DNA of 64,000 nucleotides, taken from Eledone cirrhosa. Its lineage: Eukaryota. The stretch covers positions 9,114,001-9,178,000 of the forward strand of contig OZ024765.1 of NCBI GenBank assembly GCA_964016885.1. The letters are read 5' to 3'. The translations under genes and the position numbers were made by a program. The first letter of the stretch is position 1. Each line of letters starts with the position of its first letter. This document shows positions 3,001 through 60,439 of this stretch, in pieces. Under the pieces are notes generated by a model, which had not been told where the DNA came from, did not search any database, and saw nothing but the letters and a program-made list of their open reading frames with translations.

Positions 3001-6000
3001 GTAATGAAAGGGTTAATGACATAGACAGTGTCTTTCATTAGAAATATGGTAATGAAAGGGTTAATGACATAGACAGTGTCTTTCATTAGAAATATGGTAA
3101 TGAAAGGGTTAATGACATAGACAGTGTCTTTCATTAGAAATATGGTAATGAAAGGGTTAAAGACATAGACAGTGTCTTTCATTAGAAATATGGTAATGAA
3201 AGGGTGAAAGACATAGACAGTGTCTTTCATTAGAAATATGGTAATGAAAGGGTTAATGACATAGACAGTGTCTTTCATTAGAAATATGGTAATGAAAGGG
3301 TTAATGACATAGACAGTGTCTTTCATTAGAAATATGGTAATGAAAGGGTTAATGACATAGACAGTGTCTTTCATTAGAAATATGGTAATGAAAGTGTTAA
3401 TGACATAGACAGTGTCTTTCATTAGAAATATGGTAATGAAAGGGTGAAAGACATAGACAGTGTCTTTCATTAGAAATATGGTAATGAAAGGGTTAATGAC
3501 ATAGACAGTGTCTTTCATTAGAAATATGGTAATGAAAGGGTTAATGACATAGACAGTGTCTTTCATTAGAAATATGGTAATGAAAGGGTTAATGACATAG
3601 ACAGTGTCTTTCATTAGAAATATGGTAATGAAAGGGTTAATGACATAGACAGTGTCTTTCATTAGAAATATGGTAATGAAAGGGTTAATGACATAGACAG
3701 TGTCTTTCATTAGAAATATGGTAATGAAAGGGTTAAAGACATAGACAGTGTCTTTCATTAGAAATATGGTAATGAAAGGGTGAAAGACATAGACAGTGTC
3801 TTTCATTAGAAATATGGTAATGAAAGGGTGAAAGACATAGACTGTGTCTTTCATTAGAAATATGGTAATGGAAGGGTTAATGACATAGACAGTGTCTTTC
3901 ATTAGAAATATGGTAATGAAAGGGTTAATGACATAGACAGTGTCTTTCATTAGAAATATGGTAATGAAAGGGTTAATGACATAGACAGTGTCTTTCATTA
4001 GAAATATGGTAATGAAAGGGTTAATGACATAGACAGTGTCTTTCATTAGAAATATGGTAATGAAAGGGTTAATGACATAGACAGTGTCTTTCATTAGAAA
4101 TATGGTAATGAAAGGGTTAATGACATAGACAGTGTCTTTCATTAGAAATATGGTAATGAAAGGGTTAATGACATAGACAGTGTCTTTCATTAGAAATATG
4201 GTAATGAAAGGGTTAATGACATAGACAGTGTCTTTCATTAGAAATATGGTAATGAAAGGGTTAATGACATAGACAGTGTCTTTCATTAGAAATATGGTAA
4301 TGAAAGGGTTAATGACATAGACAGTGTCTTTCATTAGAAATATGGTAATGAAAGGGTTAATGACATAGACAGTGTCTTTCATTAGAAATATGGTAATGAA
4401 AGGGTTAAAGACATAGACAGTGTCTTTCATTAGAAATATGGTAATGAAAGGGTGAAAGACATAGACAGTGTCTTTCATTAGAAATATGGTAATGAAAGGG
4501 TGAAAGACATAGACTGTGTCTTTCATTAGAAATATGGTAATGGAAGGGTTAATGACATAGACAGTGTCTTTCATTAGAAATATGGTAATGAAAGGGTTAA
4601 TGACATAGACAGTGTCTTTCATTAGAAATATGGTAATGAAAGGGTTAATGACATAGACAGTGTCTTTCATTAGAAATATGGTAATGAAAGGGTTAATGAC
4701 ATAGACAGTGTCTTTCATTAGAAATATGGTAATGAAAGGGTTAATGACATAGACAGTGTCTTTCATTAGAAATATGGTAATGAAAGGGTTAAAGACATAG
4801 ACAGTGTCTTTCATTAGAAATATGGTAATGAAAGGGTTAATGACATAGACAGTGTCTTTCATTAGAAATATGGTAATGAAAGGGTTAATGACATAGACAG
4901 TGTCTTTCATTAGAAATATGGTAATGAAAGGGTTAATGACATAGACAGTGTCTTTCATTAGAAATATGGTAATGAAAGGGTTAATGACATAGACAGTGTC
5001 TTTCATTAGAAATATGGTAATGAAAGGGTTAATGACATAGACAGTGTCTTTCATTAGAAATATGGTAATGAAAGGGTTAAAGACATAGACAGTGTCTTTC
5101 ATTAGAAATATGGTAATGAAAGGGTTAATGACATAGACAGTGTCTTTCATTAGAAATATGGTAATGAAAGGGTGAAAGACATAGACAGTGTCTTTCATTA
5201 GAAATATGGTAATGGAAGGGTTAAAGACATAGACTGTGTCTTTCATTAGAAATATGGTAATGGAAGGGTTAATGACATAGACAGTGTCTTTCATTAGAAA
5301 TATGGTAATGAAAGGGTGAAAGACATAGACAGTGTCTTTCATTAGAAATATGGTAATGAAAGGGTTAAAGATATAGACAGTGTCTTTCATTAGAAATATG
5401 GTAATGAAAGGGTTAAAGACATAGACTGTGTCTTTCATTAGAAATATGGTAATGAAAGAGTTAAAGACATAGACAGTGTCTTTCATTAGAAATATGGTAA
5501 TGAAAGGGTTAATGACATAGACAGTGTCTTTCATTAGAAATATGGTAATGAAAGGGTGAAAGACATAGACAGTGTCTTTCATTAGAAATATGGTAATGAA
5601 AGGGTTAAAGATATAGACAGTGTCTTTCATTAGAAATATGGTAATGAAAGGGTTAAAGACATAGACTGTGTCTTTCATTAGAAATATGGTAATGAAAGAG
5701 TTAAAGACATAGACAGTGTCTTTCATTAGAAATATGGTAATGGAAGGGTTAAAGACATAGACTGTGTCTTTCATTAGAAATATGGTAATGGAAGGGTTAA
5801 TGACATAGACAGTGTCTTTCATTAGAAATATGGTAATGAAAGGGTTAATGACATAGACAGTGTCTTTCATTAGAAATATGGTAATGAAAGGGTTAAAGAT
5901 ATAGACAGTGTCTTTCATTAGAAATATGGTAATGAAAGGGTTAAAGACATAGACTGTGTCTTTCATTAGAAATATGGTAATGAAAGAGTTAAAGACATAG

Positions 6001-9000
6001 ACAGTGTCTTTCATTAGAAATATGGTAATGAAAGGGTTAATGACATAGACAGTGTCTTTCATTAGAAATATGGTAATGAAAGGGTGAAAGACATAGACAG
6101 TGTCTTTCATTAGAAATATGGTAATGAAAGGGTTAAAGATATAGACAGTGTCTTTCATTAGAAATATGGTAATGAAAGGGTTAAAGACATAGACTGTGTC
6201 TTTCATTAGAAATATGGTAATGAAAGAGTTAAAGACATAGACAGTGTCTTTCATTAGAAATATGGTAATGGAAGGGTTAAAGACATAGACTGTGTCTTTC
6301 ATTAGAAATATGGTAATGGAAGGGTTAATGACATAGACAGTGTCTTTCATTAGAAATATGGTAATGAAAGGGTTAATGACATAGACAGTGTCTTTCATTA
6401 GAAATATGGTAATGAAAGGGTTAAAGATATAGACAGTGTCTTTCATTAGAAATATGGTAATGAAAGGGTTAAAGACATAGACTGTGTCTTTCATTAGAAA
6501 TATGGTAATGAAAGAGTTAAAGACATAGACAGTGTCTTTCATTAGAAATATGGTAATGAAAGGGTTAATGACATAGACAGTGTCTTTCATTAGAAATATG
6601 GTAATGAAAGGGTGAAAGACATAGACAGTGTCTTTCATTAGAAATATGGTAATGAAAGGGTTAAAGATATAGACAGTGTCTTTCATTAGAAATATGGTAA
6701 TGAAAGGGTTAAAGACATAGACTGTGTCTTTCATTAGAAATATGGTAATGAAAGAGTTAAAGACATAGACAGTGTCTTTCATTAGAAATATGGTAATGGA
6801 AGGGTTAAAGACATAGACTGTGTCTTTCATTAGAAATATGGTAATGGAAGGGTTAATGACATAGACAGTGTCTTTCATTAGAAATATGGTAATGAAAGGG
6901 TTAATGACATAGACAGTGTCTTTCATTAGAAATATGGTAATGAAAGGGTTAAAGATATAGACAGTGTCTTTCATTAGAAATATGGTAATGAAAGGGTTAA
7001 AGACATAGACTGTGTCTTTCATTAGAAATATGGTAATGAAAGAGTTAAAGACATAGACAGTGTCTTTCATTAGAAATATGGTAATGAAAGGGTTAATGAC
7101 ATAGACAGTGTCTTTCATTAGAAATATGGTAATGAAAGGGTGAAAGACATAGACAGTGTCTTTCATTAGAAATATGGTAATGAAAGGGTTAAAGATATAG
7201 ACAGTGTCTTTCATTAGAAATATGGTAATGAAAGGGTTAAAGACATAGACTGTGTCTTTCATTAGAAATATGGTAATGAAAGAGTTAAAGACATAGACAG
7301 TGTCTTTCATTAGAAATATGGTAATGGAAGGGTTAAAGACATAGACTGTGTCTTTCATTAGAAATATGGTAATGGAAGGGTTAATGACATAGACAGTGTC
7401 TTTCATTAGAAATATGGTAATGAAAGGGTTAATGACATAGACAGTGTCTTTCATTAGAAATATGGTAATGAAAGGGTTAAAGATATAGACAGTGTCTTTC
7501 ATTAGAAATATGGTAATGAAAGGGTTAAAGACATAGACTGTGTCTTTCATTAGAAATATGGTAATGAAAGAGTTAAAGACATAGACAGTGTCTTTCATTA
7601 GAAATATGGTAATGAAAGGGTGAAAGACATAGACAGTGTCTTTCATTAGAAATATGGTGATGGAAGGGTTAATGATATAGACTGTGTCTTTCATTAGAAA
7701 TATGGTAATGAAAGGGTTAAAGATATAGGCAGTGTCTTTCATTAGAAATATGGTAATAAAAGGGTTAAAGACACAGGCAGTGTCTTTCATTAGAAATATG
7801 GTAATAAAAGGGTTAAAGACATAGACAGTGTCTTTCATTAGAAATATGGTAATGAAAGGGTTAATGACATAGACAGTGTCTTTCATTAGAAATATGGTAA
7901 TGAAAGGGTTAAAGACATAGACAGTGTCTTTCATTAGAAATATGGTAATGAAAGGGTTAAAGACATAGGCAGTGTCTTTCATTAGAAATATGGTAATAAA
8001 AGGGTTAAAGACACAGGCAGTGTCTTTCATTAGAAATATGGTAATAAAAGGGTTAAAGACATAGACAGTGTCTTTCATTAGAAATATGGTAATAAAAGGG
8101 TTAAAGACACAGGCAGTGTCTTTCATTAGAAATATGGTAATAAAAGGGTTAAAGACATAGACAGTGTCTTTCATTAGAAATATGGTAATGAAAGGGTTAA
8201 TGACATAGACAGTGTCTTTCATTAGAAATATGGTAATGGAAGGGTTAAAGACATAGACAGTGTCTTTCATTAGAAATATGGTAATGGAAGGGTTAAAGAC
8301 ACAGGCAGTGTCTTTCATTAGAAATATGGTAATAAAAGGGTTAAAGACATAGACAGTGTCTTTCATTAGAAATATGGTAATAAAAGGGTTAAAGACACAG
8401 GCAGTGTCTTTCATTAGAAATATGGTAATAAAAGGGTTAAAGACATAGACAGTGTCTTTCATTAGAAATATGGTAATGAAAGGGTTAATGACATAGACAG
8501 TGTCTTTCATTAGAAATATGGTAATGAAAGGGTTAAAGACATAGACAGTGTCTTTCATTAGAAATATGGTAATGAAAGGGTTAAAGACATAGGCAGTGTC
8601 TTTCATTAGAAATATGGTAATAAAAGGGTTAAAGACACAGGCAGTGTCTTTCATTAGAAATATGGTAATAAAAGGGTTAAAGACATAGACAGTGTCTTTC
8701 ATTAGAAATATGGTAATAAAAGGGTTAAAGACACAGGCAGTGTCTTTCATTAGAAATATGGTAATAAAAGGGTTAAAGACATAGACAGTGTCTTTCATTA
8801 GAAATATGGTAATGAAAGGGTTAATGACATAGACAGTGTCTTTCATTAGAAATATGGTAATGGAAGGGTTAAAGACATAGACAGTGTCTTTCATTAGAAA
8901 TATGGTAATGGAAGGGTTAATGATATAGGCAGTGTCTTACATTAGAAATATTGTAATGAAAGGGTTAAAGACATAGACAGTGTCTTTCATTAGAAATATG

Positions 9001-10110
9001 GTAATGAAAGGGTTAATGACATAGACAGTGTCTTTCATTAGAAATATGGTAATGAAAGGGTTAAAGACATAGACAGTGTCTTTCATTAGAAATATGGTAA
9101 TGGAAGGGTTAATGATATAGGCAGTGTCTTACATTAGAAATATTGTAATGAAAGGGTTAAAGACATAGACAGTGTCTTTCATTAGAAATATGGTAATGAA
9201 AGGGTTAAAGACATAGACAGTGTCTTTCATTAGAAATATGGTAATGAAAGGGTTAAAGACATAGACAGTGTCTTTCATTAGAAATATGGTAATGAAAGGG
9301 TTAAAGACATAGACAGCGTCTTTCATTAGAAATATGGTAATGAAAGGGTTAATGATATATACAGTGTCTTGCATTAGAAATATGGTAATGAAAGGGTTAA
9401 TGACATAGACAGTTCTTTCATTAGAAATATGGTAATGAAAGGGTTAATGACATAGACAGTGTCTTACATTAGAAATATGGTAATGAAAGGGTTAATGACA
9501 TAGACAGTGTCTTACATTAGAAATATTGTAATGAAAGGGTTAAAGACATAGACAGTGTCTTTCATTAGAAATATGGTAATGAAAGGGTTAAAGACATAGA
9601 CAGTGTCTTTCATTAGAAATATGGTAATGAAAGGGTGAAAGACATAGACAGTGTCTTTCATTAGAAATATGGTAATGAAAGGGTTAAAGACATAGACAGT
9701 GTCTTTCATTAGAAATATGGTAATGAAAGGGTTAATGACATAGACAGTGTCTTTCATTAGAAATATGGTAATGAAAGGGTTAATGACATAGACAGTGTCT
9801 TACATTAGAAATATGGTAATGAAAGGATTAATGATATATACAGTGTCTTTCATTAGAAATATGGTAATGAAAGGGTTAATGATATATACAGTGTCTTTAA
9901 TTAGAAATATGGTAATGAAAGGGTTAATGACATAGACAGTGTCTTTCAGTAGAAATATGGTAATGAAAGGGTTAATGACATAGACAGTGTCTTTCAGTAG
10001 AAATATGGTAATGAAAGGGTTAATGACATAGACAGTGTCTTTCAGTAGAAATATGGTAATGAAAGGGTTAATGACATAGGCAGTGTCTTTCATTAGAAAT
10101 ATGGTAGCAA
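1..10110. repeat. 48-bp tandem satellite (~210 units, runs off the window start)
   Basis: Unit cagtgtctttcattagaaatatggtaatgaaagggttaatgacataga is repeated with few variants. There is a 1-bp insertion near 2903 and a 1-bp deletion near 9413. Confidence 0.98.
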
Positions 10111-20400: not shown

Positions 20401-20689
20401 TAATGTGTGGTGACAGTCAAGTTTGCAATTTTCAACTGTCAATATATATATATATATTCTCTATTTATTTATTTTCAAATTATACAAATTATATTAATTA
20501 TTTTATTATATTATTTATTTTCTGTTTTCTTCATTTATTGCCTTATATTTCTTCATATACATGCATATATACATATATGTATATATGTATATATGTGTAC
20601 ATATACATCCAGGCTGAAACAAATGTGGTCGTGTAGGTGTCACGACAAAAAAAAAAACACGCAGTCCACACTAGTGTGGCTGTGTAGGT

Positions 20690-22230
20690 AACGCGGTAAA
20701 AACCTCCCAGTCCATGCTGAAGGCATCAGGGGACGTAGGCACTAAACTGGTTGCAAGCATCATCAATCAGGCTATATATGGTGGTGTCATACCCAAAGAC
20801 TGGTGCAGCAGTATTCTCATAAATTACTACAAAGGTAAAGGGGATGCTCTGGAGAGGAGCAATTATAGGGGTATAAAACTGATGGATCGGGTTATGAAAG
20901 TGGCTGAAAGGATATTAGCACAACTAATTAGAGAAAGGGTCAAACTAGATGAGATGCAGTTTGGTTTTGTGCCTGGGAAGAGTACAACAGATGCCCTCTT
21001 CTTGGTGAGACAATTGCAAGAGCGGTTCTTAGAGAAAAATAAGCCACTATACTTAGCCTTTGTTGACCTAGAGAAGGCCTTTGATAGGGTACCCCGATCT
21101 GTCATCTGGTGGTCCCTAAGGAAACTAGGTATTGAGGAATGGCTAGTGAGGATAGTGCAAACTTTGTACAGAGGTACTCTCAGTAAAGTCAGGGTAGGAA
21201 TGGAGTTTAGTGAGGAATTCCAGATACAAGTAGGAGTACATCAAGGTTCGGTCCTCAGCCCGCTCTTGTTCATTATAGTCCTCCAAGCCATAACAGAGGA
21301 GTTTAAGACTGGCTGTCCATGGGAACTTCTCTATGCTGACGATCTGGTTCTTATAGCAGAATCAGTAGAGGAGCTAGAGAATAAATTCTGGCTATGGAAA
21401 CAGCAGTTGGAAGCAAGAGGACTGAGAGTGAACCTAGCTAAGACAAAAGTGTTGATGAGTAGAAAAGAGGACAAAACTCTGATTCCGTCAGGGAAATGGC
21501 CATGTTCGATATGCAGAAAAGGAACTGGCATAAATTCTATAAAATGCACACAATGCAGATCCTGGGTACACAAGAGATGTAGCGGGATAGCAGGCAAACT
21601 AACAGGTAGGGAGAAATATGTATGCAGTAGATCTACAGGGAAATTTGACAGTAGAGTCGCATTGATAGACACATTTTTCAAATGCAGGAGGGTGCTATAG
21701 AAGTGGTAGATAGCTTCCGGTACCTAGGAGATCAGATTAGCATGGGAGGAGGGTGTTCCGAGGCCTTAGTATCTAGAATAAGGATGGGTTGGAAGAAGGT
21801 TAGGGAGCTGCTTCCTCTGCTGACGAAGAAGGGTTTCAACTGCAGAGGATATGCGACGGCTGGAGAGAAATGAGGCAAGCATGCTCCGTTGGATGTGCGT
21901 GAACGACCCAGCATGAATGTGTTGAGAGAGAAACTGTGTCTGAGAGGGATAGAATGTAGTGTACGGGAGAGGAGACTGAGGTGGTATGGACATGTGATGC
22001 GCATAGAGGATGACCGATGGGTGAAGAAGTGCCTGGAAATGCCAGTTGAAGGAAGACGTGGTAGAGGTAGACCACGAAAAACATGGGTGGAGTTGGTGAG
22101 AACAGACCTCAGATCGCTGAAGCTCACGGTGGAGATGACGAAGGACCGTGACGAGTGGAGTGATGCTGTACTGAATAAACCCGTCCCACCTTTGCAAGCA
22201 GGGAAAAGCGGACGTAAAATGATGATGATG
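20690..22230 (+). mobile_element. 5'-truncated, frameshifted RTE-clade LINE (RT with YADD, Cys/His finger, (GAT)n tail)
   Basis: ORF 20714-21700 has QFGFVPGKST, FVDLEKAFDRV, GVHQGSVLSPLLF and LLYADDL. The C-terminus RLRWYGHVMR..RGRPRKTW lies in other frames. Ends in gatgatgatg. Confidence 0.92.
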
Positions 22231-24213: not shown

Positions 24214-24423
24214 ATGATATCAACATTGCTACTTTTATTCTCCAATGCTTATTCATTATGGGGCTCTAGACCTTCCACTGAAACCCCACCTGAAGAAAAG
24301 GTGCCAGAAGAAAGGAGTTTTGTTGTTATTAAACCCGACGGAATCCAACGAGGACTCTGTGGACAAATTCTTAAAAAATTTGAACGAAAAGGATTTAAAT
24401 TAGTAGCTTCTAAATTATTATAC
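24214..24423 (+). CDS. NME3-like nucleoside diphosphate kinase, coding exon 1
   Basis: [17 protein letters not shown]...[38 protein letters not shown], then donor gtgagt (phase 0). Confidence 0.92.
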
Positions 24424-24838
24424 GTGAGTACCTTGTTTCCTCTTATAAAACAGGCCTAAAAAAAGTACTAGGCCTTAATTTTCCCCTAAAAAAAAAGTAC
24501 TAGGCTTTATTTTTCTTTTAAAAATAGGTACCAGGCCCAATGCCGGATTTACCATTGTGCTTAGGTGTGCTTAAGCACAGGGCCCCGTAGGCCAGAGGCG
24601 GGCCCATCTACCTGTGGAGGCCAAGCAGGCCTACCTCTTTCAGGGCCAGGTCTCATCACTTCACTAGCACAAGACCTCATTTGTCCTCAATCCGGCACAC
24701 ACACACACACATATAAATATCTATATACATACATACAGGGTACCCCCCCCCCTAAAAAAATGTATATACACTTATATTATAATGTTGTTGAAGTGAGTAT
24801 ACATTTTTGGGGGGGATCTTATATATATATATATACGT

Positions 24839-25030
24839 AGGTCCCGGGTTGAGTCGGGGATAACCACAGTAAGTAAGGTACTCAATACATGGCAGAGTAA
24901 AATTTTTTTTATTTTATAGAATGAGCTTCTGCAGGACTAGTACTGTTTCATTCAGATGAAATCTTCAGGAAGCTTCCTGAAGATTTCATCTGAATGAAAC
25001 AGTACTAGTCCTGTAGAAGCTCCTTCTATA
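24839..25030. mobile_element. Penelope-like/retrozyme-type short element with two head-to-head type I hammerheads (family B)
   Basis: Inverted repeat centred on ggaagcttcc. The + arm 24971-25021 reads agcuuc CUGAAGA uuucaucugaau GAAACAG uacuaguc CUGUA gaagcu. Confidence 0.75.
24971..25021 (+). ncRNA. Type I hammerhead ribozyme motif (intact core, GUA site)
   Basis: Stem I agcuuc/gaagcu, core CUGAAGA and GAAA, stem II uuc/gaa, stem III ACAG/CUGU. Predicted cleavage after A25015. Confidence 0.75.
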
Positions 25031-25531
25031 TATATATATATTATATAACTGAGGATGTCTGTCTGTGTGTGTGCCTGTGAGTTTGAATCCCTAAAACTCG
25101 AGAAGTACCCAATCGATTTTTTTCAAAGTTTACATGTGTATTACTTATGTTTCAGGGAATGTTATGCACTTAACAAAATTCAACTTTTTGATCCCGCAGA
25201 GCCCGCATTAGGTGGAAAACTGCGTTTTTTCAGCTTTTTAGGGGTTTTTTGAGGAGTTACGTCAGACCTATTTCCTTGAAATTGTAACTGTTTTAGTCAG
25301 TCTCTTCTTCATACCGTGAGCAAAGAAAATCCAACTTTTTTATGGCCTAGGGCCCCGCATTAGGTGAAACCTACATTTTTCCTGTTTCATCGAGGAAAAT
25401 CTTAGATTATCCAGCCATCAGAGTATTCGGTTTATTTTCTTTACATATTGTCAAGGCATGCAGTATTTCCACGATTAGGTCTGTTGGCGGCCCGCGTTCC
25501 TTATCCCGTGCAGCGTCGGGTACCAATGCTA

Positions 25532-25532
<1 letters not shown>
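25025..25532 (+). mobile_element. Non-autonomous Helitron, same family as 11597-12214
   Basis: 5' tctatata...actgaggatgtctg...gagtttgaatccctaaaact; 3' cccgtgcagcgtcgggtaccaatgCTAG. Confidence 0.72.
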
Positions 25533-25566
<34 letters not shown>

Positions 25567-26244
25567 AGCTGCGCCCTCGTTATCGAGTATAGCCATTTCA
25601 CGATATACCACGATTAATAATTAATTCTATCGTGCAATGCCTGCGCATGAAGATATTTTTCAAAGTGAGGAAAGACTGTGCACTGAGCCAATCCCACTCT
25701 CTGAGCGACAGTAGCTATAACCCGAAAAGAAAAGATCAACATCATCGGTAACAACTGAGCCGCAGGTTTTATATCGGAGTTATCCCAGTTACATGACAAA
25801 GGTTAGGGGGTCCTTCACTCCCAGTGGTTTAACCGTGTGATCGGGTGTCCAGCCCGACTATTTCTATGTCCCTGCGCATATACTTACACATACAGCCATG
25901 TACATACGCATACACATATGTACAAGTTTATATACATATTTACACACTTTTGGATGGCCGTTGACTCTTACGAGTTCTTCCGTCCTTGTCAGGTTTTGTT
26001 TATATATATAAACGCTACATTATGTGGTCAACCTTTCGCGGTAGGGTCCACACCGTAGGTAAATTGTTTCCAAAGAAGTCGGTTTGATCGAACCCATATA
26101 TTATGACTGACAGTATACAGTTCTCTGCAACAGACCAGTCAATATATCAATATTATCGACCCTCCGAAACGATCGTAAAACAATGATATGAATAGGTAAA
26201 ATAACTTGCTTTTGTTGTCATTGTTAAATAAAATATGTAATATA

Positions 26245-26430
26245 TATAGAGAGATGGCTTCTACAGGACTAGAACTGTTTCATTCGAAAAAATCATCTGG
26301 AAAGACCTAATGATTTCCTTCAAATGAAACAGTTCTAGTCCTGTAGAAGCCATCTCTATATTAAATATTTATATTCTGCTATGTATTGAGTACCTTACTT
26401 ACTGTGGTTAACCCCGATTGAACCCGGGAT
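26245..26430 (-). mobile_element. Second, degenerate family-B double-hammerhead element in opposite orientation
   Basis: Arms ggcttctacaggactagaactgtttcatt / aatgaaacagttctagtcctgtagaagcc. Cores are mutated (CUAAUGA, CAGAUGA). The tail tattgagtaccttacttactgtggtta...cccggga is the reverse complement of 24841-24890. Confidence 0.7.
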
Positions 26431-26489
<59 letters not shown>

Positions 26490-26498
26490 CCTGTTTAA

Positions 26499-27048
26499 CC
26501 CTTTAGCATTTACATTACTCTATATATGGTAAAAGCTTTACCTCACATAATATCACATAACATTTACATTACTCTATATATACTTTTCACAGTAATGGCT
26601 TTACCTCATATAATATCTCACATAACATTTACATTACTCTATATATACTATTGTATTGTCACAGTAAAGGCTTTACCTCACATAATATCTCACATAACAT
26701 TTACATTACTCTATATATACTATTGTATTTTCACAGTAAAGGCTTTACCTCACATAATATCTCACATAACATTTACATTACTCTATATATACTATTGTAT
26801 TTTCACAGTAAAGACTTTACCTCACATAACATTTACATTACTTTATATATACTATTGTATTTTCACAGTAAAGGCTTTACTTCACATAATATCTCACATA
26901 ACACTTACATTACTCTATATATACTATTGTGTTTTCACAGTAAAAGCTTTACCTCACATAATATTGAATCTATGAGATTTTGATATTTATTTTGAGAACA
27001 ATACCTTAACATAAGTATGAGCAACCGGTTTGAACAGAAAGAGGCGAG
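26499..27048 (+). mobile_element. piggyBac-like MITE copy with ~6 internal 72-bp units, right end lost
   Basis: Starts TTAA-ccctttagcatttac and has the same body as 62256-63463. Interrupted by the SINE-derived array. Confidence 0.75.
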
Positions 27049-27049
27049 A

Positions 27050-28140
27050 CAAAAATCACCCAGTCTACACTGTAAAGTGGTCATGTAGGTGTCATGACAA
27101 AAGGTACCCAGTCCACACTCTAAAGTGGTCATGTAGGTGTCAACAAAAAACACCCAGTCCACACTGTAAAGTGGTCGTGTAGGTGTCACAACAAAAAACA
27201 CCCAGTCCACACTGTAATGTGGTCATGTAGGTGTCACGACATAAAGCACCCAGTCCACACTGTAATGTGGTCATGTAGGTGTCACGACATAAAGCACCCA
27301 GTCCACACTGTAATGTGGTCATGTAGGTGTCACGACATAAAGCACCCAGTCCACACTGTAATGTGGTCATGTAGGTGTCACGACATAAAGCACCCAGTCC
27401 ACACTGTAATGTGGTCATGTAGGGGTCACGATATAAAGCACCCAGTCCACACTGTAATGTGGTCATGTAGGTGTCACGACATAAAGCACCCAGTCCACAC
27501 TGTAATGTGGTCATGTAGGGGTCACGATATAAAGCACCCAGTCCACACTGTAATGTGGTCATGTAGGTGTCACAACAAAAAACACCCAGTCCACTCTGTA
27601 ATGTGGTCATGTAGGTGTCACAACAAAAAACACCCAGTCCACACTGTAATGTGGTCATGTAGGTGTCACGACATAAAGCACCCAGTCCACACTGTAATGT
27701 GGTCATGTAGGTGTCACAACAAAAAACACCCAGTCCACACTGTAAAGTGGTCATATAGGTGTCACAACAAAAAACACCCAGTCCACTCTGTAATGTGGTC
27801 ATGTAGGTGTCACAACAAAAAACACCCAGTCCACACTGTAATGTGGTCATGTAGGTGTCACAACAAAAAGTACCCAGTCCACACTGTAATGTGGTCATGT
27901 AGGTGTCACGACATAAAGCACCCAGTCCACACTGTAATGTGGTCATGTAGGTGTCACGACATAAAGCACCCAGTCCACTCTGTAAATGTGGTTGGAGTTA
28001 GGAAGAGCATCCAGTCGTAGAAATCTAGCCAGCAACAGTTCTTTGAGCGAGACACGGTCACCTGACTCAACTTGCCTCAAGTGGGACAAACCCGTCTAAC
28101 CCATGCTAGCGTGGAAGATAGACGTTAAACAATGACGATG
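27050..28140 (+). repeat. SINE with internal 48-bp unit expanded to ~19 copies
   Basis: Unit aaagcacccagtccacactgtaatgtggtcatgtaggtgtcacgacat, followed by the SINE 3' part (ttaggaagagcatccag...aacccatgctagcgtggaag). Confidence 0.88.
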
Positions 28141-28159
28141 TTCTAACATTATATATTAT

Positions 28160-28445
28160 TTCAATTTACGTCCCTTTACGATCTGAGTTCAAATCCCGCC
28201 GAGGTTGACTTTGCCTTTCATCCTTACGGGGTCGATAAAATAAAGTACCAGTAATGCACTGGGGTAATTGCTGGCCTTGTGCCTAAAGTAGAAACAATTA
28301 TATATTATTTCAACACCCCTTTATGGTCTGAGTTCAGATCCCACCGAGGTTAACTTTGCCTTTCATCCTTACGGGGTCGATAAAATAAAGTACCAGTAAT
28401 ACACTGGGATAATTGCTGGCCTTGTGGCAAAAGTAGAAACAATTA
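28160..28445 (+). mobile_element. Two tandem partial copies of a tRNA-related SINE (gagttcaaatccc...ggggtcgataaaataaagtaccagt family)
   Basis: B-box-like GTTCAAATCC. Other copies at ~28858-29015, 29655-29797, 40405-40565, 42175-42295(-), 55700-55895, 63520-63715 and 63820-64000. Confidence 0.75.
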
Positions 28446-28529
28446 TTTATTATTTCTTTCCAGCCAAGCAAGGACCTGTTGCAGGCCCATTATGACAAAT
28501 CCCAACAGTATAACTGGTATTCTAAGAGT

Positions 28530-28802
28530 GTAGGCATGTGGCCTAGTGGTAAGAGTGTTGGACTTAGGATCATAATGTCGTGGGTTCGATTCCTGGGTTG
28601 TGTGTTGTGTTCTTGAGCAAAACACTTCATTTCACGTTGCTCCAGTATACTCAGCTGAAAATGAGTACCAGCAATAGCTTGGGTTTAACCCTGTGATGGA
28701 CTGGTGTCCTGTCCAAGGGGGAGTCTTATACTCTCAGTCCCTTCACACCATGAAACTGGAATAAGCACTGATCAAATGAGCCTTCTGGCTTAAGACAGAC
28801 AG
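28530..28802 (+). mobile_element. Full-length tRNA-derived SINE with 11-bp TSD
   Basis: A box tggcctagtgg and B box ggttcgattcc. Flanked by attctaagagt at 28519-28529 and 28803-28813. Confidence 0.85.
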
Positions 28803-29162
28803 ATTCTAAGAGTATCTCTTTTCTTTATTTCCAGCCAAGCAAGGACCTGCTGGAGGCCCGGACGCCATGCTTTCCAGCATAGTTACGTCCCTTTACGATC
28901 TTGAGTTCAAATCCCGCCGAGGTTGACTTTGCCTTTCATCCTTACGGGGTCGATAAAATAAAGTACCAGTAATGCACTGGGTAATTGCTGGCCTTGTGCC
29001 AAAAGTCGAAACAATTATGACAAACCCCAGCAGTATAACTGGTATCCTAACAGTATCTCTTTTCTTTATTTCCAGCCAAGCAAGGGCCTGCTGGAGGCCC
29101 ATTATGACAAACCCCAGCAGTATAACTGGTATCCTAACAGTATCTCTTTTCTTTATTTCCAG

Positions 29163-29264
29163 CCAAGCAAGGACCTGCTGGAGGCCCATTATGTTGAACA
29201 TCAAAAGGAGGACTTCTTCAACCAGCTCATAACATACATGTCCTCTGGCCCAGTATTTGCTATG
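29163..29264 (+). CDS. NME3-like NDK, coding exon 2
   Basis: Acceptor ttttctttatttccag; PSKDLLEAHYVEHQKEDFFNQLITYMSSGPVFAM; donor gtcagt. 102 nt. Confidence 0.93.
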
Positions 29265-29802
29265 GTCAGTCTCTGGTTTATTTTTATTTTTATTTCATTA
29301 GTTGGTGTTCTACCCTAGTTACCTTATTGTTGTCACAAGATGGGGGGGGGGGGGGCAACGTCGTCTCCTTCTATCTGTCACGCACACACACACTTACACA
29401 CACACTCATGCACATACACACGCACAAACACTCACATTCACACACACTCACACATACACACTCACAGACACATACACATTCACATACACACACTCACTCT
29501 CCTTAAACAAATGGAGTTCCCTTTTCTCTCTCTATGTAGATATCTCTCACTTGGCACCCCCCCCCCTCTATACAGTGAGTGTGACGGACAGACAGACACA
29601 CAACGTTTTTATTATAATATAGATTACTCTGAGGTCTATGGTACAGATTGACAGACTCGGTAGAAGGTCGGACGCCATGCTTCGCAGCATGGAGTTATGG
29701 CCCTTTATGTTCTGAGTCCAAATCCCGCTAAGGTTAACTTTGCCTTTCATCCTTACGGAGTCGATAAAATAAAGTACCAGTAATACACTGGGGTTGATTT
29801 AA

Positions 29803-29950
29803 CCCTTTAGCATTTACATTACTCTATATATACTATTGTATTTTCACAGTAAAGGCTTTACCTCGCATAATATCTCACATAACATTTACATTACTCTATA
29901 TATACTATTGTATTTTGACTGTAAAGGCTTTACCTCACATAATATCTCAC
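29803..29950 (+). mobile_element. Truncated piggyBac-like MITE (2 x 72-bp units) abutting the exon 3 acceptor
   Basis: TTAA-ccctttagcatttacattactc start. Confidence 0.7.
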
Positions 29951-29978
29951 CTAAAAATGTGTTCTATTTATCCTTCAG

Positions 29979-30091
29979 GTACTTGAGGGGACAGAAGTCG
30001 TAGAGATGTGTCAAAAAATTATAGGGGCCCCAAAACCCCAGGAATCAGAGCTTGGTACCATTCGAAGTGATTATGCTATTGAAATGAAAAG
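29979..30091 (+). CDS. NME3-like NDK, coding exon 3
   Basis: Acceptor tccttcag; VLEGTEVVEMCQKIIGAPKPQESELGTIRSDYAIEMK(R); donor gtaagt. 113 nt, phase 2. Confidence 0.93.
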
Positions 30092-30139
30092 GTAAGTCTT
30101 AATTTTCTTCCTTTCTTTCTCTTTCTTTCTCTCTCGCTT

Positions 30140-30525
30140 TCTGTAAAGTGGTTATGTCAGTGTCATGACAAAAGGTACCCAGTCCACACTGTAAAGTGTA
30201 GGTGTCACGATAAAAAGCACCCAGTCTACACTAAAGTGGTCATGTAGGTGTCGCAATAAAAAGCACCCAGTCCTCACTGTGTAGGTGTCATGACAAAAAG
30301 CAGTAAGTCCACACTGTAAAGTGGTCATGTAGGTGTCATGACAAAAAGCACTGTCCACACTGTAAAGTGGTTGGTGTTAAGAAATACATCCAGCCATAGA
30401 AACCAAGCCAGAATCAGTTCTGTATGAGCAAAAAACAGTCATCTGATCTGACTTGTCTCACAACGGGGCAGCTTGTCTCACCCATGCTAGTGTGGAAAAA
30501 TGGACTTTAAACAGTGATGACGATG
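30140..30525 (+). mobile_element. SINE with ~5 degenerate internal 48-bp units
   Basis: Same unit and 3' part as 27050-28140. Confidence 0.75.
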
Positions 30526-30549
30526 TGAGATTTTATATATTGAATATGT

Positions 30550-31090
30550 TTCTACAGAGATGTCTTAGGAGAGAATCACTGGACAGATTTGTAACTCAAA
30601 GATCAAAGAGTCACTCCAGATAGAACTGCAACTTCTCCGAATTAAGAGATCACAACTGAGATACTATGGACATGTGGTTAGAATATCCCAGGAAAGAATC
30701 TCTGAATTGAGAGATCACAGCTCTGATACTACAGACATGTGGTTAGAATATCCCAGGAAAGAATCTCTGAATGTAGACATCACAGCTCTGATACTACAGA
30801 CATGTGGTTAGAATATCCCAGGAAAGAATCTCTGAATTGAGACATCACAGCTCTGATACTACAGACATGTGGTTAGAATATCTCAGGAAAGAATCACTGG
30901 ACAGATTTTATGAGTAAAACCAACTGGCAAGGAGACCCATGGTTGGATAACATCCATGAACTTGGCTGGTAACACTTGGGGAACCAGGCGGATCAGTTGG
31001 ACACAGTTGCTTCTGACAGGACCTGCTGGGAAGAGTGTTTGAGGACTCTGACCCCCAAAGCACCTCTCAGGATTAAGTGGGAGAAGATGT
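30550..31090 (+). mobile_element. RTE-like LINE 3' fragment with internal ~60-bp tandem duplications
   Basis: Encodes ...QLRYYGHVVRISQERI... repeatedly. Related minus-strand fragment at ~33500-33690. Confidence 0.6.
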
Positions 31091-31221
31091 TTGTTTTCTT
31101 ATAGCCCTGTAAAGATAATATTGATAATGATTTCTGATTTAGACACAAGGCCAACAATTTTGCGGGAGGGGAAAGTCCATTAAATCAATCCCAGTTCATT
31201 ACTGGTACTATATTTTATTAA

Positions 31222-32005
31222 CCCTTTAGCATTTAAAGCAGCCATATCCAGTCAGAATTCTCTCACATCTTTCTGTCCACACCAGTTGTAACTGGCCACT
31301 CATACTGATGTTAAGGTATTGTTCTCAAAATAAATAATATTAAAATCTCATAGATCTGATATTATGTAAGGTAAAGCCGTTACAGTGAAAATACAATAGT
31401 ATATATAGAGTAATGTAAATGTTATGTGAGATATTATGTAAGGTAAAGCCGTTACAGTGAAAATACAATAGTATATATAGAGTAATGTAAATGTTATGTG
31501 AGATATTATGTAAGGTAAAGCCGTTACAGTGAAAATACAATAGTATATATAGAGTAATGTAAATGTTATATGAGATATTATGTGAGGTAAAGCCTTTACT
31601 GTGAAAATATAATAGTATATATAGAGTAATGTAAATGTTATGTGAGATATTATGTGAGGTAAAGACGTTACAGTGAAAATACAATAGTATATATAGAGTA
31701 ATGTAAATGTTATGTGAGATATTATATGAGGTAAAGCCTTTACTGTGACAATACAATAGTATATATAGAGTAATGTAAATGCTATGCGAGATATTATGTG
31801 AGGTAAAGCCTTTACTGTGAAAATACAATAGTATATATAGAGTAATGTAGATGTTATGTGAGATATTATGTGAGGTAAAGCCTTTACAGTGAAAATACAA
31901 TAGTATATATAGAGTATTGTAGATGTTATGTGAGATATTATGTGAGGTAAAGCCTTTACTGTGACAATACAATAGTATATATAGAGTAATGTAAATGCTA
32001 AAAGG
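31222..32005 (-). mobile_element. Complete piggyBac-like MITE with ~9 internal 72-bp units
   Basis: TTAA(31218-31221) ccctttagcattta ... taaatgctaaaagg TTAA(32006-32009). Confidence 0.85.
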
Positions 32006-32146
32006 TTAACGACAAAGCTAATCTCAGCAGGTTTTGAACTCAGATCGTAAAGGGGTGTAACTCTATGCCATAAAGCATGTTGTTCGACACTACCAATTAT
32101 TGGCAATGTCTGAAATTACTGTTTTTCTCTCTCAATCTCTCTCTAG

Positions 32147-32264
32147 GAACCTCATTTACGCCAGCGACTCCACCGAATCAGCAGAACGTGAAATAGATCT
32201 TTGGTTTTCTGAAGATGAACTTATCTCCTGGGATTGCACAGCTCACCATCTACGATATGAATGA
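32147..32264 (+). CDS. NME3-like NDK, terminal coding exon (catalytic His replaced by Tyr)
   Basis: Acceptor ctctctctag; (R)NLIYASDSTESAEREIDLWFSEDELISWDCTAHHLRYE*. The spliced CDS is 543 nt (180 aa) with no frameshift. Confidence 0.93.
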
Positions 32265-32859
32265 TTGGGGAGTTATTGTAGGGGAAGGGTTAGCTGGCCC
32301 CCGGGGGGGGGGGGGTAGCTGGCGGCGGTGACCGGGGGTAGAAGGGTATGGATGTGGGGTGAGGGTTAAAATAAATGATTGAGTTTCATTTTAGGGTTGT
32401 TTAGTGATGAGGGGGACACAGTGAATTGGAAGGGTCTGGTGGGGTGGGTAGGATGGAAGTGTCTGCTGGTGGGGTGAGGGTTAAGATACAGGATTGGGTT
32501 TCATTTGAGGGGGTGGGGGTGGAAGGGCCTGGGGGGGGAACATAATTGGGTTTAATTGTTGGAAGGTTTAGGGATTGGTGGGGGGGGAACGGGGGTTTGA
32601 AGTGTTTGGCCCCTCGTGCGTGGAAGGGTGGGGTGTGAAACAAAGTGATTCAGTTTTATTGGAGGAAGGTTCAGGTGGTGGTGAAGGGCACAGAGAGGTG
32701 AAGTGGGGTGTTGAAACAGCAGGGAAGGGATTCATGGGAGTTTGTGGGTCTTGAGAGTAACATAAGGGTTTGTGTAAAGCTTTAGTTTATTAGGCTGCTT
32801 TTTATTGTCATATGATGTTTAAAGGGGCCGAGAGGAGGTGTAGGATGGGGTGGGTGAAA

Positions 32860-33375
32860 CTACAACTACCACCACTACACTACCACCTATACACTACAAG
32901 AACTTCTACACTACTACCACATATACACCACTACACTACCACTACACTACACCACCCCTCTACTACCACCTATACACCACCACTACACTACCACCTATAC
33001 ACCACCACCACTACCACCTATACACCACCACCACTACACTACCACCTATACACCACCACCGCTACACTACCACCTATACACCACCACCACTACACTACCA
33101 CCTATACACCACCACCACTACCACCTATACAACACCACCACTACACTACCACCGCTACACTACCACCTATACACCACCACCACTACACTACCACCTATAC
33201 ACCACCACCACTACTACCTATACACCACCACTACACTACCACCTATACACCACCACCACTACTACCTATACACCACCACTACACTACCACCTATACACCA
33301 CCACCACCACCACCACCACTACTACCTATACACCACCACTACACCACCACTCCACTACTACCACCTATACACTAC
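32860..33375. repeat. (CAC/TAC)-rich low-complexity tandem repeat
   Basis: Variable unit ccaccactacactaccacctataca. Confidence 0.9.
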
Positions 33376-33807
33376 AGATCTCTATATTTGTTGTTATATT
33401 TCTAAAATGTGTGCTATTAACTTTGTTAATCAATAAAATATGTTTTGAACAATTAAATAAATTAATGAGTTTTGTTTAATTGAATATTCTTCTTGTTGGA
33501 GGCTCGTTAGGGGCAGAGTCCTTAAACACTCCCTCCATCAGGTCCTGTCAGAAGCAACTGTCTCCAAGTGAGACCAGTCAAGCTCAAGGATGTTATCCAA
33601 CCATCTTTCTCAGGGTCTACCCCTGGGTCTCCTGCCAGTTGGTTTTGCCTGTAAAATCTGTCCAGTGATTCTTTTCTGAGACATTCTAACCTTACAGAGT
33701 GTACTGGGTGTATTATATCACGACACCACTACCACTTTACAGAGTGAACTGGATGTATTATATCATGACACCAGTACTACCACTATATATATATGTGTTC
33801 AGCGTTA

Positions 33808-59444: not shown

Positions 59445-60425
59445 ATCTAGGGCGGGTAAAATTCCCGAGATCCATGGACGAGTTCTCTCCAGCGGTCTCT
59501 GTCCCTCATTATCGCTGGCATGTCCTGCGTCTCCAACAGACCAGTGCCTGTCCTTAGGGCATCAACATATGTCAACCTCGGTCTCCCTCTTCTAGTGTGT
59601 CATTGTAGGGGCTCCCACAGGAGCACTGAGTGCAATGTCAACTCTGGATGTTGGTGAGCATGTCCAGCTAACTTCACTCTCCTCTGTGTCACTTTTGACC
59701 TGATTTTTGGGAGGTTCCCATACAGCTCTGAGTTTTTCATCCTCAATGTATACTGATTAATGTTCAGAGCCATCCTCAGCATTCTAGTGTAGCACCCATC
59801 CACCATCTGAGTGAGTTTCTTGGTCAGTGTACAAGTTTCAGACCTGTACAGCAGCACAGACTCCACTACAGCAACGAAGAGGCAGATCTTCAGGTCTTTA
59901 CGAAGGTCTGACTTCCACACCGATCTCAAGCTGTGGCACACCGCCCAGGCTTTGCTCTTCCTCTCAACCACATAATCTTCCGTATTCCCAATCTTTGCTC
60001 CCAAATACAGGAAGTCCTCAACCAATTCTAGCGGCTTCCTGCCTACATTAGTAATCTTCTCTGGCTTCTTAATATTCTCTACCAGATATTTTGTTTTAGT
60101 CTCATTCATTCTCAGCCCCACACTCATCGACACAGTCTCAACCTCCTGCATCAAATCCTCTACCTCCTTCACTGTATTTGTCACCAAAGCTATGTCGTCG
60201 GCAAATTCAGCATCCAATACCTTTTTCGCCTTAACTCTCCTGCTCTGAGCCGGTGCTACAGTAAAGCCAGAGTCCTGGTGTTTCTCCAGCAAAAGGCGCA
60301 GACAACAGTCCACTATGATGATAAAAAGGTAGGGAGCCAATGTATCTCCCTGGAGCACTCCAGCCAGTATCTCAAAGAACTCTGTCATCCCATCAGATGT
60401 AATGACTTTGGCTTTGGTGTTGGTA
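59445..60425 (-). mobile_element. RTE-like LINE RT fragment (FADD)
   Basis: GVLQGDTLAPYLF, EFADDIAL, VGLRMNETKTKY, FLYLG, KLAGH. Confidence 0.88.
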
Positions 60426-60439
60426 TATATATATTGTTA

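What the first reader, a model, noticed from the sequence alone, without database searches (positions are those of the whole stretch)
24214..32264. Intact NME3-like NDP kinase gene lacking the catalytic histidine (probable pseudoenzyme)
Seen: a clean 180-aa spliced ORF in which NxxHGSDS reads NLIYASDS (TAC at 32157-32159). The Arg88 equivalent is Gln (CAA 30012-30014) and the Thr94 equivalent is Pro, while the K12, Y52, F60, R105, N115 and E129 equivalents remain. Established: His118 (NME1 numbering) carries the phosphate. Vertebrate NME3 has a hydrophobic N-terminus like [13 protein letters not shown] and a kinase-independent role in mitochondrial fusion. Inference: a catalytically dead, membrane-anchored or secreted NDK paralogue.
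Basis: partly seen in the sequence, partly recalled or inferred. Interest (0 to 1): 0.74.

Follow-up and report, generated by a model that had tools for sequence, protein, structure and literature searches.

The report
Kinase-dead NME3 look-alike in an octopod
An octopus relative has a spliced copy of the housekeeping enzyme nucleoside diphosphate kinase whose essential histidine is replaced by tyrosine, while an intact copy lies elsewhere in its genome; it is likely a catalytically dead subunit that would hold the enzyme complex on membranes, as kinase-dead human NME3 does on mitochondria.

Summary
Observation confirmed. Four GT-AG exons give a 180-aa Group I NDK with H118Y, R88Q and T94P. 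A spliced contig from a second sample and three unspliced runs read TAC (one study).

It is not a vertebrate NME3 orthologue (AU p=8e-5). It is sister (98/100) to the 169-aa Octopus 'NDK 3', which keeps H118, R88 and T94, so catalysis was lost only in this lineage. An intact short NDK lies on contig C24.

Most long Group I forms retrieved, nearly all invertebrate, carry a hydrophobic N-terminal helix plus a second Met (52 of 59). Only vertebrate NME3 and Octopus NDK3 lack that Met: an independent split into cytosolic and membrane forms.

Lineage-specific changes cluster in the nucleotide pocket (4/9 vs 3/42 conserved sites, P=0.013), which favours a kept non-catalytic protein. Overall, though, conserved sites are hit at the random rate (7 of 22), so recent decay is not excluded.

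Best reading: a dead, membrane-anchoring hexamer subunit; location and oligomer untested. The scan had not noted this gene; it noted a bacterial His-to-Tyr NDK fold elsewhere (unchecked).

The parts
24214..24423 (+). Coding exon 1 (aa 1-70): N-terminal helix, spacer, NDK strand 1 to strand 2 (K12 kept). Intron follows at NME1 codon 42, phase 0
24214..24264 (+). Uncharged N-terminal 17 residues, predicted helix 2-16, hydrophobic moment 0.43; F9, N11 and Y13 align with F9, N11 and F13 of NME3; no second in-frame Met before the domain
24265..24309 (+). Pro/Glu-rich spacer, 11 residues longer than in the Octopus orthologue, partly a 15-base tandem duplication; predicted coil with low confidence; contains no GT donor
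28464..29162 (+). Three partial copies of the exon-2 acceptor plus the first ~25 bases of exon 2 (starting at 28464, 28835, 29076); the last would add 29 residues in frame; the X4 contig uses the acceptor at 29163
29163..29264 (+). Coding exon 2 (aa 71-104): Y52 and F60 kept; hairpin 56-63 turned from basic to acidic (K56Q, G57K, K58E, D62N, K63Q against Octopus). Intron follows at NME1 codon 76, phase 0
29979..30091 (+). Coding exon 3: R88Q (30012-30014), T94P (30030-30032), R105 kept, G106S (30066-30068), G113K (30087-30089). Intron follows inside R114, phase 2
32147..32264 (+). Coding exon 4: N115, H118Y (TAC 32157-32159), G119A, S120, E129, Y151, E152, stop
32265..33461 (+). Probable 3' untranslated region; X4 contigs cover 32145-32416 and 32611-32850 (end of the stretch laid); candidate AATAAA at 33432-33437 and 33456-33461
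   Evidence: the 3' end is inferred

Best explanation
This is the spliced, long-form Group I NDK gene of an octopod, with the phospho-acceptor histidine and two phosphate-binding residues replaced, and it likely works as a catalytically dead subunit whose predicted N-terminal amphipathic helix would hold NDK hexamers on organelle membranes, most likely mitochondria. Steps: (1) SHOWN: gene, splicing of exons 2-4, H118Y/R88Q/T94P, and an intact 149-aa paralogue on C24. (2) SHOWN by tree: orthology to Octopus 'NDK 3', which is still intact. (3) INFERRED: the ancestral gene made a long and a short protein from two start codons; a duplication gave the short cytosolic job to an intron-poor copy (possibly a retrocopy), and the intron-bearing gene lost its second Met and kept only the long form, as vertebrate NME3 did independently. 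(4) FOLLOWS FROM KNOWN CHEMISTRY (about 0.95): no phosphohistidine, so no NDPK activity. (5) INFERRED (about 0.7): the protein is still under selection for fold and anchor. (6) INFERRED from NME3 (about 0.5): it oligomerises, alone or with the active C24 subunit, and tethers membranes or recruits active subunits to dynamin-family GTPases; the longer spacer would set the hexamer further from the membrane.
For: Spliced contig with TAC. Only one other Group I locus was found in the genome, with the catalytic His motif intact. Tree: window + Octopus NDK3 98.1/100, cephalopod clade 98.9/99. 52 of 59 long forms keep a Met just before the domain; the 7 without are 5 vertebrate NME3 and 2 Octopus NDK3. 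Octopus NDK3 aligns to human NME3 (1zs6) over residues 2-169 without a gap, with F9-A10-N11 and F13 shared. Helix 2-16 is predicted; hydrophobic moment 0.43 against 0.30-0.32 for three vertebrate NME3. Of 22 window-only changes, 5 fall in 11 pocket residues named in PMC10482350 and PMC8597243 (1.6 expected, P=0.012). Conserved pocket 4/9 against other conserved sites 3/42: P=0.013, or 0.044 with H118 left out; with G113 counted as pocket after PMC8080780, P=0.002 and 0.007. The 17 changes outside the pocket are milder than neutral point changes (mean BLOSUM62 +0.76 vs -0.36, P=0.004). A neutral frame survives 22 such changes with P=0.13, or 0.006 if one event in ten is an indel. Kinase-dead NME3 H135Q still clusters mitochondria, given the N17 helix and hexamers (PMC10432850); recruitment of active NME1/2 into hetero-oligomers is proposed in PMC8658066.
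Against: The dead state is seen in one genome only; both Octopus orthologue sequences keep the site. Taken without regard to the pocket, 7 of 22 window-only changes hit sites at least 90% conserved, against 7.6 expected at random; the Octopus branch has 1 of 12 (4.1 expected). Other conserved sites differ from variable sites only when unpolarised changes are counted (P=0.002), not on window-only changes (P=0.17). The BLOSUM and open-frame tests include time before catalysis was lost; 7 neutral changes leave the frame open with P=0.21-0.54. The branch is long (0.40 vs 0.16), though only 1 of 4 outgroups gives a significant rate difference. Of the two NME3 hexamer glutamates, E46 is kept and E40 is Gln (Pro in Octopus); W149L, P101L, G106S and G113K touch the Kpn loop and C-terminus that build the hexamer. 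One NME3 role, hypoxic mitophagy, needs the phosphohistidine (PMC10938004 abstract). No data on protein, location or oligomer. Exon 1 was not checked against reads.
Confidence: 0.48

Rival explanations
1. A redundant gene in early decay: it is still transcribed and spliced, but selection has lapsed because the C24 copy supplies the activity, and no stop has happened to arise yet.
For: The loss is limited to this lineage. Conserved sites are hit at the random rate overall, 7 of 22 vs 7.6. Longest cephalopod end branch, 0.40. 11-residue insertion and partial exon-2 duplicates.
Against: Pocket clustering, P=0.013-0.044. Seven neutral hits in 51 conserved sites imply about 20 in the domain, for which an open frame has P about 0.13, or below 0.01 with indels. 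39 of 42 non-pocket conserved sites carry no window-only change. Start, six splice sites and the helix are intact. The Octopus orthologue is 148/148 identical between species, so the gene matters in relatives.
Confidence: 0.27
2. A dead subunit that acts as a brake or as a binder of a different ligand: it mixes into hexamers to lower activity at membranes, or its remodelled, now acidic pocket binds a protein or a non-nucleotide ligand.
For: Changes concentrate around the cleft; hairpin 53-65 has net charge -2 against +1 in Octopus. The dimer-interface stretch 24-40 is conservative. K12, Y52, F60, R105 and N115 are kept.
Against: No ligand or partner data. Relaxation of an unused pocket gives the same pattern. 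The active C24 copy also scores -1 in that stretch.
Confidence: 0.13
3. A secreted, non-catalytic NDK-fold protein whose N-terminus is a cleaved signal peptide.
For: Leucine run at 5-8 followed by small residues (A12, S14) and a polar spacer looks signal-like by eye; maximum 9-residue hydropathy 2.5.
Against: No positive n-region; the helix is amphipathic and homologous to NME3 N17, which is reported to bind the outer face of mitochondria and to lack a transmembrane or import signal. No signal-peptide predictor was available.
Confidence: 0.09
4. The enzyme is active after all, through A-to-I editing (common in coleoids, recalled) or a substitute nucleophile.
For: Four of the changes (R27K, R88Q, G106S, G113K) would revert by A-to-G reading.
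Against: TAC can only become Cys; T94P, G119A and K58E cannot revert. The X4 contig shows no other letter in exons 3-4 (contigs drop rare variants). Phosphotyrosine is not a high-energy donor (own knowledge).
Confidence: 0.03

Closest known systems
Octopus 'nucleoside diphosphate kinase 3' (P0317: CAI9741837.1, XP_029652747.1; P0406: XP_014767778.1)
   Same: Orthologue by tree (98.1/100); 100 of 148 domain residues identical; long-only N-terminus; shares W78L, P101L, W149L.
   Different: Keeps H118, R88, T94, G106, G113, G119; no 11-residue insertion; annotated automatically, and no study of it was found.
Vertebrate NME3 (NDPK C; PDB 1zs6, 8qvy) and its engineered H135Q mutant
   Same: Group I fold; hydrophobic, amphipathic N-terminal 17 residues with F9 and an aromatic residue at 13; no second start codon; intact cytosolic paralogues in the same genome.
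   Different: Separate origin (clade rejected, p-AU 8.4e-5); NME3 is an active kinase; location and tethering are shown for NME3 and untested here.
Decapodiform and other invertebrate Group I NDK (Sepia CAE1313518.1 = P0158; gastropod, insect Awd-type, priapulid and hemichordate long forms)
   Same: Same family and homologous N-terminal helix; 61-63% domain identity to decapodiform proteins.
   Different: They keep a second Met (a short form is possible from the same gene) and the whole active site.
Intact short NDK of this genome (G000 C24, exons about 18401068-18401114 and 18405947-18406349)
   Same: Group I paralogue, 71 of 148 identical; synonymous sites saturated.
   Different: 149 aa, His kept, no N-terminal helix, lacks the window gene's three introns and has one of about 4.8 kb elsewhere (donor chosen by fit to Octopus length, not by reads).
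NME6 (Group II, reported phosphotransfer-inactive, PMC8597243)
   Same: An NDK-fold protein with a mitochondrial role and no measurable activity in that study.
   Different: Group II, monomeric, inside mitochondria, and it keeps its active-site residues.

Membership tests
NDK fold family (Pfam PF00334) | Profile match over the domain | tested here: met
   Four exons match consecutive profile parts, 42.2, 35.7, 29.1 and 24.1 bits (cut-off 27)
Group I NME/NDPK (descent) | Single NDK domain inside the Group I tree | tested here: met
   Nested in the cephalopod clade 98.9/99 among 30 Group I rows; no Group II rows were in the tree
Group I NME/NDPK (descent) | Conserved exon-intron structure | tested here: inconclusive
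   Introns at NME1 codons 42/0, 76/0, 114/2. That these are the vertebrate positions is recalled; papers state a shared structure in Lottia and vertebrates (figures not seen); P0161 runs into intron-like letters after the same Arg and P0402 has an insertion at the first site
Active NDP kinase (EC 2.7.4.6) | Phospho-acceptor His118 | tested here: not met
   Tyr, TAC in the assembly and in 4 of 4 runs
Active NDP kinase (EC 2.7.4.6) | Phosphate- and ribose-binding residues K12, Y52, R88, T94, R105, N115, G119 | tested here: not met
   R88Q, T94P, G119A changed; K12, Y52, R105, N115 kept
Active NDP kinase (EC 2.7.4.6) | Measured phosphotransfer | not testable with these tools
   Needs an assay
Vertebrate NME3 orthologue | One clade with vertebrate NME3 | tested here: not met
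Works like NME3 | N-terminal amphipathic helix with F9/F13 | tested here: met
   Predicted helix 2-16, moment 0.43, F9 and Y13; prediction only, exon 1 folded alone
Works like NME3 | Hexamer formation (E40, E46, Kpn loop, C-terminus) | tested here: inconclusive
   E46, P96, R114, Y151, E152 kept; E40 is Gln; P101L, G106S, G113K, W149L. No whole-protein or complex model was made
Works like NME3 | Location on the mitochondrial outer membrane and binding of phosphatidic acid | not testable with these tools
   Needs imaging and liposome assays
Pseudoenzyme (as against pseudogene) | Transcribed with an intact frame | tested here: met
   Spliced contig over exons 2-4 in one run
Pseudoenzyme (as against pseudogene) | Purifying selection after loss of catalysis | tested here: inconclusive
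   Pocket clustering for, overall conserved-site rate against; no orthologous DNA for dN/dS

The most novel reading that the evidence does not exclude
The membrane-binding helix credited to vertebrate NME3 is an old bilaterian feature, made as the long isoform of the single Group I NDK gene. Octopods split that gene into a cytosolic enzyme and an NME3-like membrane form independently of vertebrates, and this lineage went one step further: a natural kinase-dead Group I subunit kept by selection only as a mitochondrial tether or hexamer anchor, a wild-type counterpart of the H135Q experiment.
Probability: 0.35. Interest if true: 0.72.

Novelty: new variant of a known kind. Interest (0 to 1): 0.52.

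Why it matters
Group I NDKs are described as uniformly active, with nine conserved residues (PMC8597243), and whether NME3's tethering role can be separated from catalysis rests on engineered mutants. A naturally dead, expressed, long-only paralogue with an intact orthologue in Octopus and an active partner in its own genome is a ready three-way comparison for that question. The same data suggest that the NME3-type N-terminus is not vertebrate-only, against the reading in PMC10432850, which points to an untested long isoform of invertebrate NDKs such as Awd. If the gene is simply decaying, it is a minor case of paralogue loss.

Tried and rejected
No RNA holder listed in the run search; X4 is taken as RNA only because its contig is spliced. 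X1 had no cover over exon 3, so the Gln codon is checked in X4 alone. A search with exon 1 alone found no cephalopod protein (38 hits), and the representative search (best 150 of 18,195) gave no closer relative; the orthologue appeared only with a decapodiform-anchored profile. Alignment A2 was misaligned and not used. The protein Atlas gave no result. No Argonauta long form and no decapodiform short form were retrieved; only the best 120 of about 8,000 candidates were listed per search, so absence is not shown, and the date of the duplication is unresolved (node support 18/40). Assembly error: rejected. A hidden intact NME3-type copy: none among 6 matches to P0317 or 7 to PF00334 (counts are lower bounds and the assembly may be incomplete). 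Rescue by A-to-I editing: rejected for His. The spacer as a small intron: no GT donor. Paralogue dN/dS: synonymous sites saturated (pS 0.78). In one search a wrong donor gave the C24 protein two extra residues; this was corrected before the tree, and the identities skip those gap columns. Neighbouring genes: 84 of 185 filtered open frames were scanned; only two reverse-transcriptase pieces matched, so there was no synteny test. No complex prediction was run. Literature searches for this gene found nothing: NDPK + octopus + NME3, 0 papers; NDPK + cephalopod + octopus, 2 papers, one read and about another NDK, one seen as listing only; searches listed no natural His-less Group I NDK in an animal (listings only). 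The library lacks most subscription papers.
Full report
OBSERVATION. The gene is there as described. Exons 24214-24423, 29163-29264, 29979-30091 and 32147-32264 have GT/AG ends and give 180 codons and a stop. In NME1 numbering (residue minus 28) the protein has H118Y, R88Q and T94P and keeps K12, Y52, F60, R105, N115, S120 and E129. All four exons match Pfam NDK in order. H118 stands in 306 of 310 retrieved proteins that cover the column; R88 in 312 of 314.

IS IT REAL AND EXPRESSED? Four runs of one study hold the stretch; none is on record as RNA. All four read TAC. X1-X3 are unspliced and may be the assembly's source. X4, a second sample, has a 799-nt contig that joins exon 2 to exon 3 across a GT..AG gap of 714 bases with no other letter; a contig of the same length and depth starts matching at the exon-4 acceptor, at the record position where exon 3 ends. 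I read this as one spliced mRNA. Contigs say nothing about level or tissue.

WHAT ELSE THE GENOME HOLDS. One other Group I locus was found, on C24: 149 aa, His intact, no N-terminal helix. It is 130 of 148 identical to the short Octopus NDK and 122 of 148 to that of Argonauta, so the genome is an octopod's and not that of the three Octopus species seen. The C24 gene lacks the window gene's three introns and has one at another place. Lottia and vertebrates are reported to share a conserved Group I structure (PMC2978717, passages), and vertebrates to keep three of four ancestral introns (PMC3078890, passages and section 5). That the window's introns are those three is recalled, with indirect support from P0161 and P0402. 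So the window gene looks like the parent locus and the active gene like an intron-poor offspring; a retrocopy origin is inference. The other PF00334 matches (C12, C6, C5) look like Group II genes by eye and were not followed up.

ORTHOLOGUES. Octopus vulgaris/sinensis (P0317) and O. bimaculoides (P0406) have a 169-aa protein, annotated 'NDK 3' in O. vulgaris, that is the window protein's sister (98.1/100) and keeps H118, R88, T94, G106, G113 and G119. Decapodiform proteins (a cluster holding Sepia P0158, and unnamed P0068) are long and intact. A clade with vertebrate NME3 is rejected (p-AU 8.4e-5). Catalysis was therefore lost after the split from Octopus. The tree used 30 hand-picked rows of the proteins retrieved. 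Whether the duplication is octopod-only or older is unresolved (18/40).

THE N-TERMINUS. Among the retrieved proteins, 59 are long forms with a hydrophobic start. 52 keep a Met within eight residues of the domain, so they could also make a short form; the named ones are insects, molluscs, chelicerate, myriapod, priapulid and hemichordate. The 7 without are five vertebrate NME3 and the two Octopus orthologues. The set is biased by my queries, and the long isoforms are gene predictions. The window protein also lacks that Met. Octopus NDK3 aligns to human NME3 without a gap and shares F9, A10, N11 and F13; the window protein has F9, N11 and Y13. Exon 1 folded with 42 rows gives a helix at 2-16, a low-confidence coil and the first NDK elements (mean pLDDT 78). 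Hydrophobic moment is 0.43 (vertebrate NME3 0.30-0.32 on my scale; 0.288 reported for human). In human NME3 this helix, F9/F13 and hexamers are needed for tethering of mitochondria, and H135Q does not impair it (PMC10432850, passages). That paper calls N17 a vertebrate NME3 feature; its supplementary alignment, which I did not read, may bear on this.

KEPT OR DECAYING? For: 5 of 22 window-only changes lie in 11 pocket residues taken from PMC10482350 and PMC8597243 (passages), 1.6 expected, P=0.012. Conserved pocket 4/9 vs other conserved 3/42, P=0.013 (0.044 without H118, which prompted the finding). Two of those three are glycines beside R105 and V112; G113 is tied to adenine binding in PMC8080780 (passages), and counting it, after the fact, gives P=0.002. 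Non-pocket changes are milder than neutral (P=0.004), and a neutral frame rarely survives 22 changes (0.13; 0.006 with an assumed 10% indels). Against: 7 of 22 at sites at least 90% conserved in 333 non-cephalopod proteins is the random expectation (7.6), unlike the Octopus branch (1 of 12). The contrast between conserved non-pocket and variable sites is not significant on window-only changes (P=0.17). A short recent neutral phase is not excluded. The branch is 0.40 against 0.16 for Octopus, but the control gene is also longer in this lineage (0.12 vs about 0.02-0.05), and relative-rate counts are significant with 1 of 4 outgroups. I put a kept protein at about 70%.

MECHANISM. Without His118 there is no phospho-intermediate; R88Q and T94P remove phosphate contacts. 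Editing cannot restore His. What remains is a fold able, in relatives, to form hexamers, and a membrane helix on a longer spacer. The most economical job is NME3's non-catalytic one: a membrane-anchored subunit that tethers organelles, or brings active C24 subunits to them, as proposed for kinase-dead NME3 with NME1/2 (PMC8658066, passages; the primary paper was not held). Hexamer contacts are only partly kept, and NME3's mitophagy role needs the histidine (PMC10938004, abstract), so this lineage would have lost or reassigned it. Location, oligomer and partner are untested.

NOVELTY. Inactive NDK-fold proteins are known (NME6), pseudoenzymes are common (listing), and two unnamed Group I-like database proteins also lack the His (P0282, P0302). 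I found no paper on this gene, on the octopod pair, or on a natural His-less animal Group I NDK (listings, one passage); no supplements were read. The scan had no note on this sequence; unchecked notes describe bacterial His-less NDK folds. Verdict: new variant of a known kind, interest 0.52.

Noticed in passing
G000 C24, L010:5069-5115 and L001:1506-1908: The active short NDK has lost the three introns seen in the window gene and has a single intron of about 4.8 kb in codon 16; like the Octopus and Argonauta short forms it has D14E at a 99%-conserved site. Possibly a retrocopy that took over the housekeeping role.
   Followed up: partly
proteins P0317, P0406 (Octopus): The intact orthologue is 148/148 identical between O. 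vulgaris and O. bimaculoides yet has E23P, G102R, P101L and W149L at subunit-contact regions; its oligomeric state may be unusual.
   Followed up: partly
proteins listed: A hydrophobic 15-20 residue extension before a second Met recurs in insect, mollusc, chelicerate, myriapod, priapulid and hemichordate Group I NDKs and resembles NME3 N17; no paper on it was found.
   Followed up: partly
window 28464-29162: Three partial duplicates of the exon-2 acceptor and exon start, mixed with SINE-like repeats; the nearest would add 29 residues in frame.
   Followed up: partly
protein P0002 (Tupaia NME3 isoform X1): This predicted protein has the same R88Q and T94P changes as the window gene and runs into unrelated sequence before the catalytic His; a gene-model error or a degenerate NME3.
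   Followed up: no
proteins P0282, P0302 (unnamed): Group I-like NDKs with Asp or Gln in place of the catalytic His.
   Followed up: no
window 20675-21697 (+) and 59603-60436 (-): Reverse-transcriptase pieces of retroelements; the first frame also has a PHD finger match (RVT_1 E=2.7e-30, PHD E=6.8e-6).
   Followed up: no
window 1-10106: A 48-bp satellite of at least 210 copies, 96% alike, with strong GC skew; many other minisatellites fill the window.
   Followed up: no
protein P0162: A 120-aa protein filed as Campylobacter fetus falls in the 90% cluster of Octopus NDK; likely a mislabelled or contaminated record.
   Followed up: no
window 32302-32303 and 32702: Length variation in a G run and an A/G difference in the 3' region between runs; ordinary allelic or homopolymer variation.
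   Followed up: no
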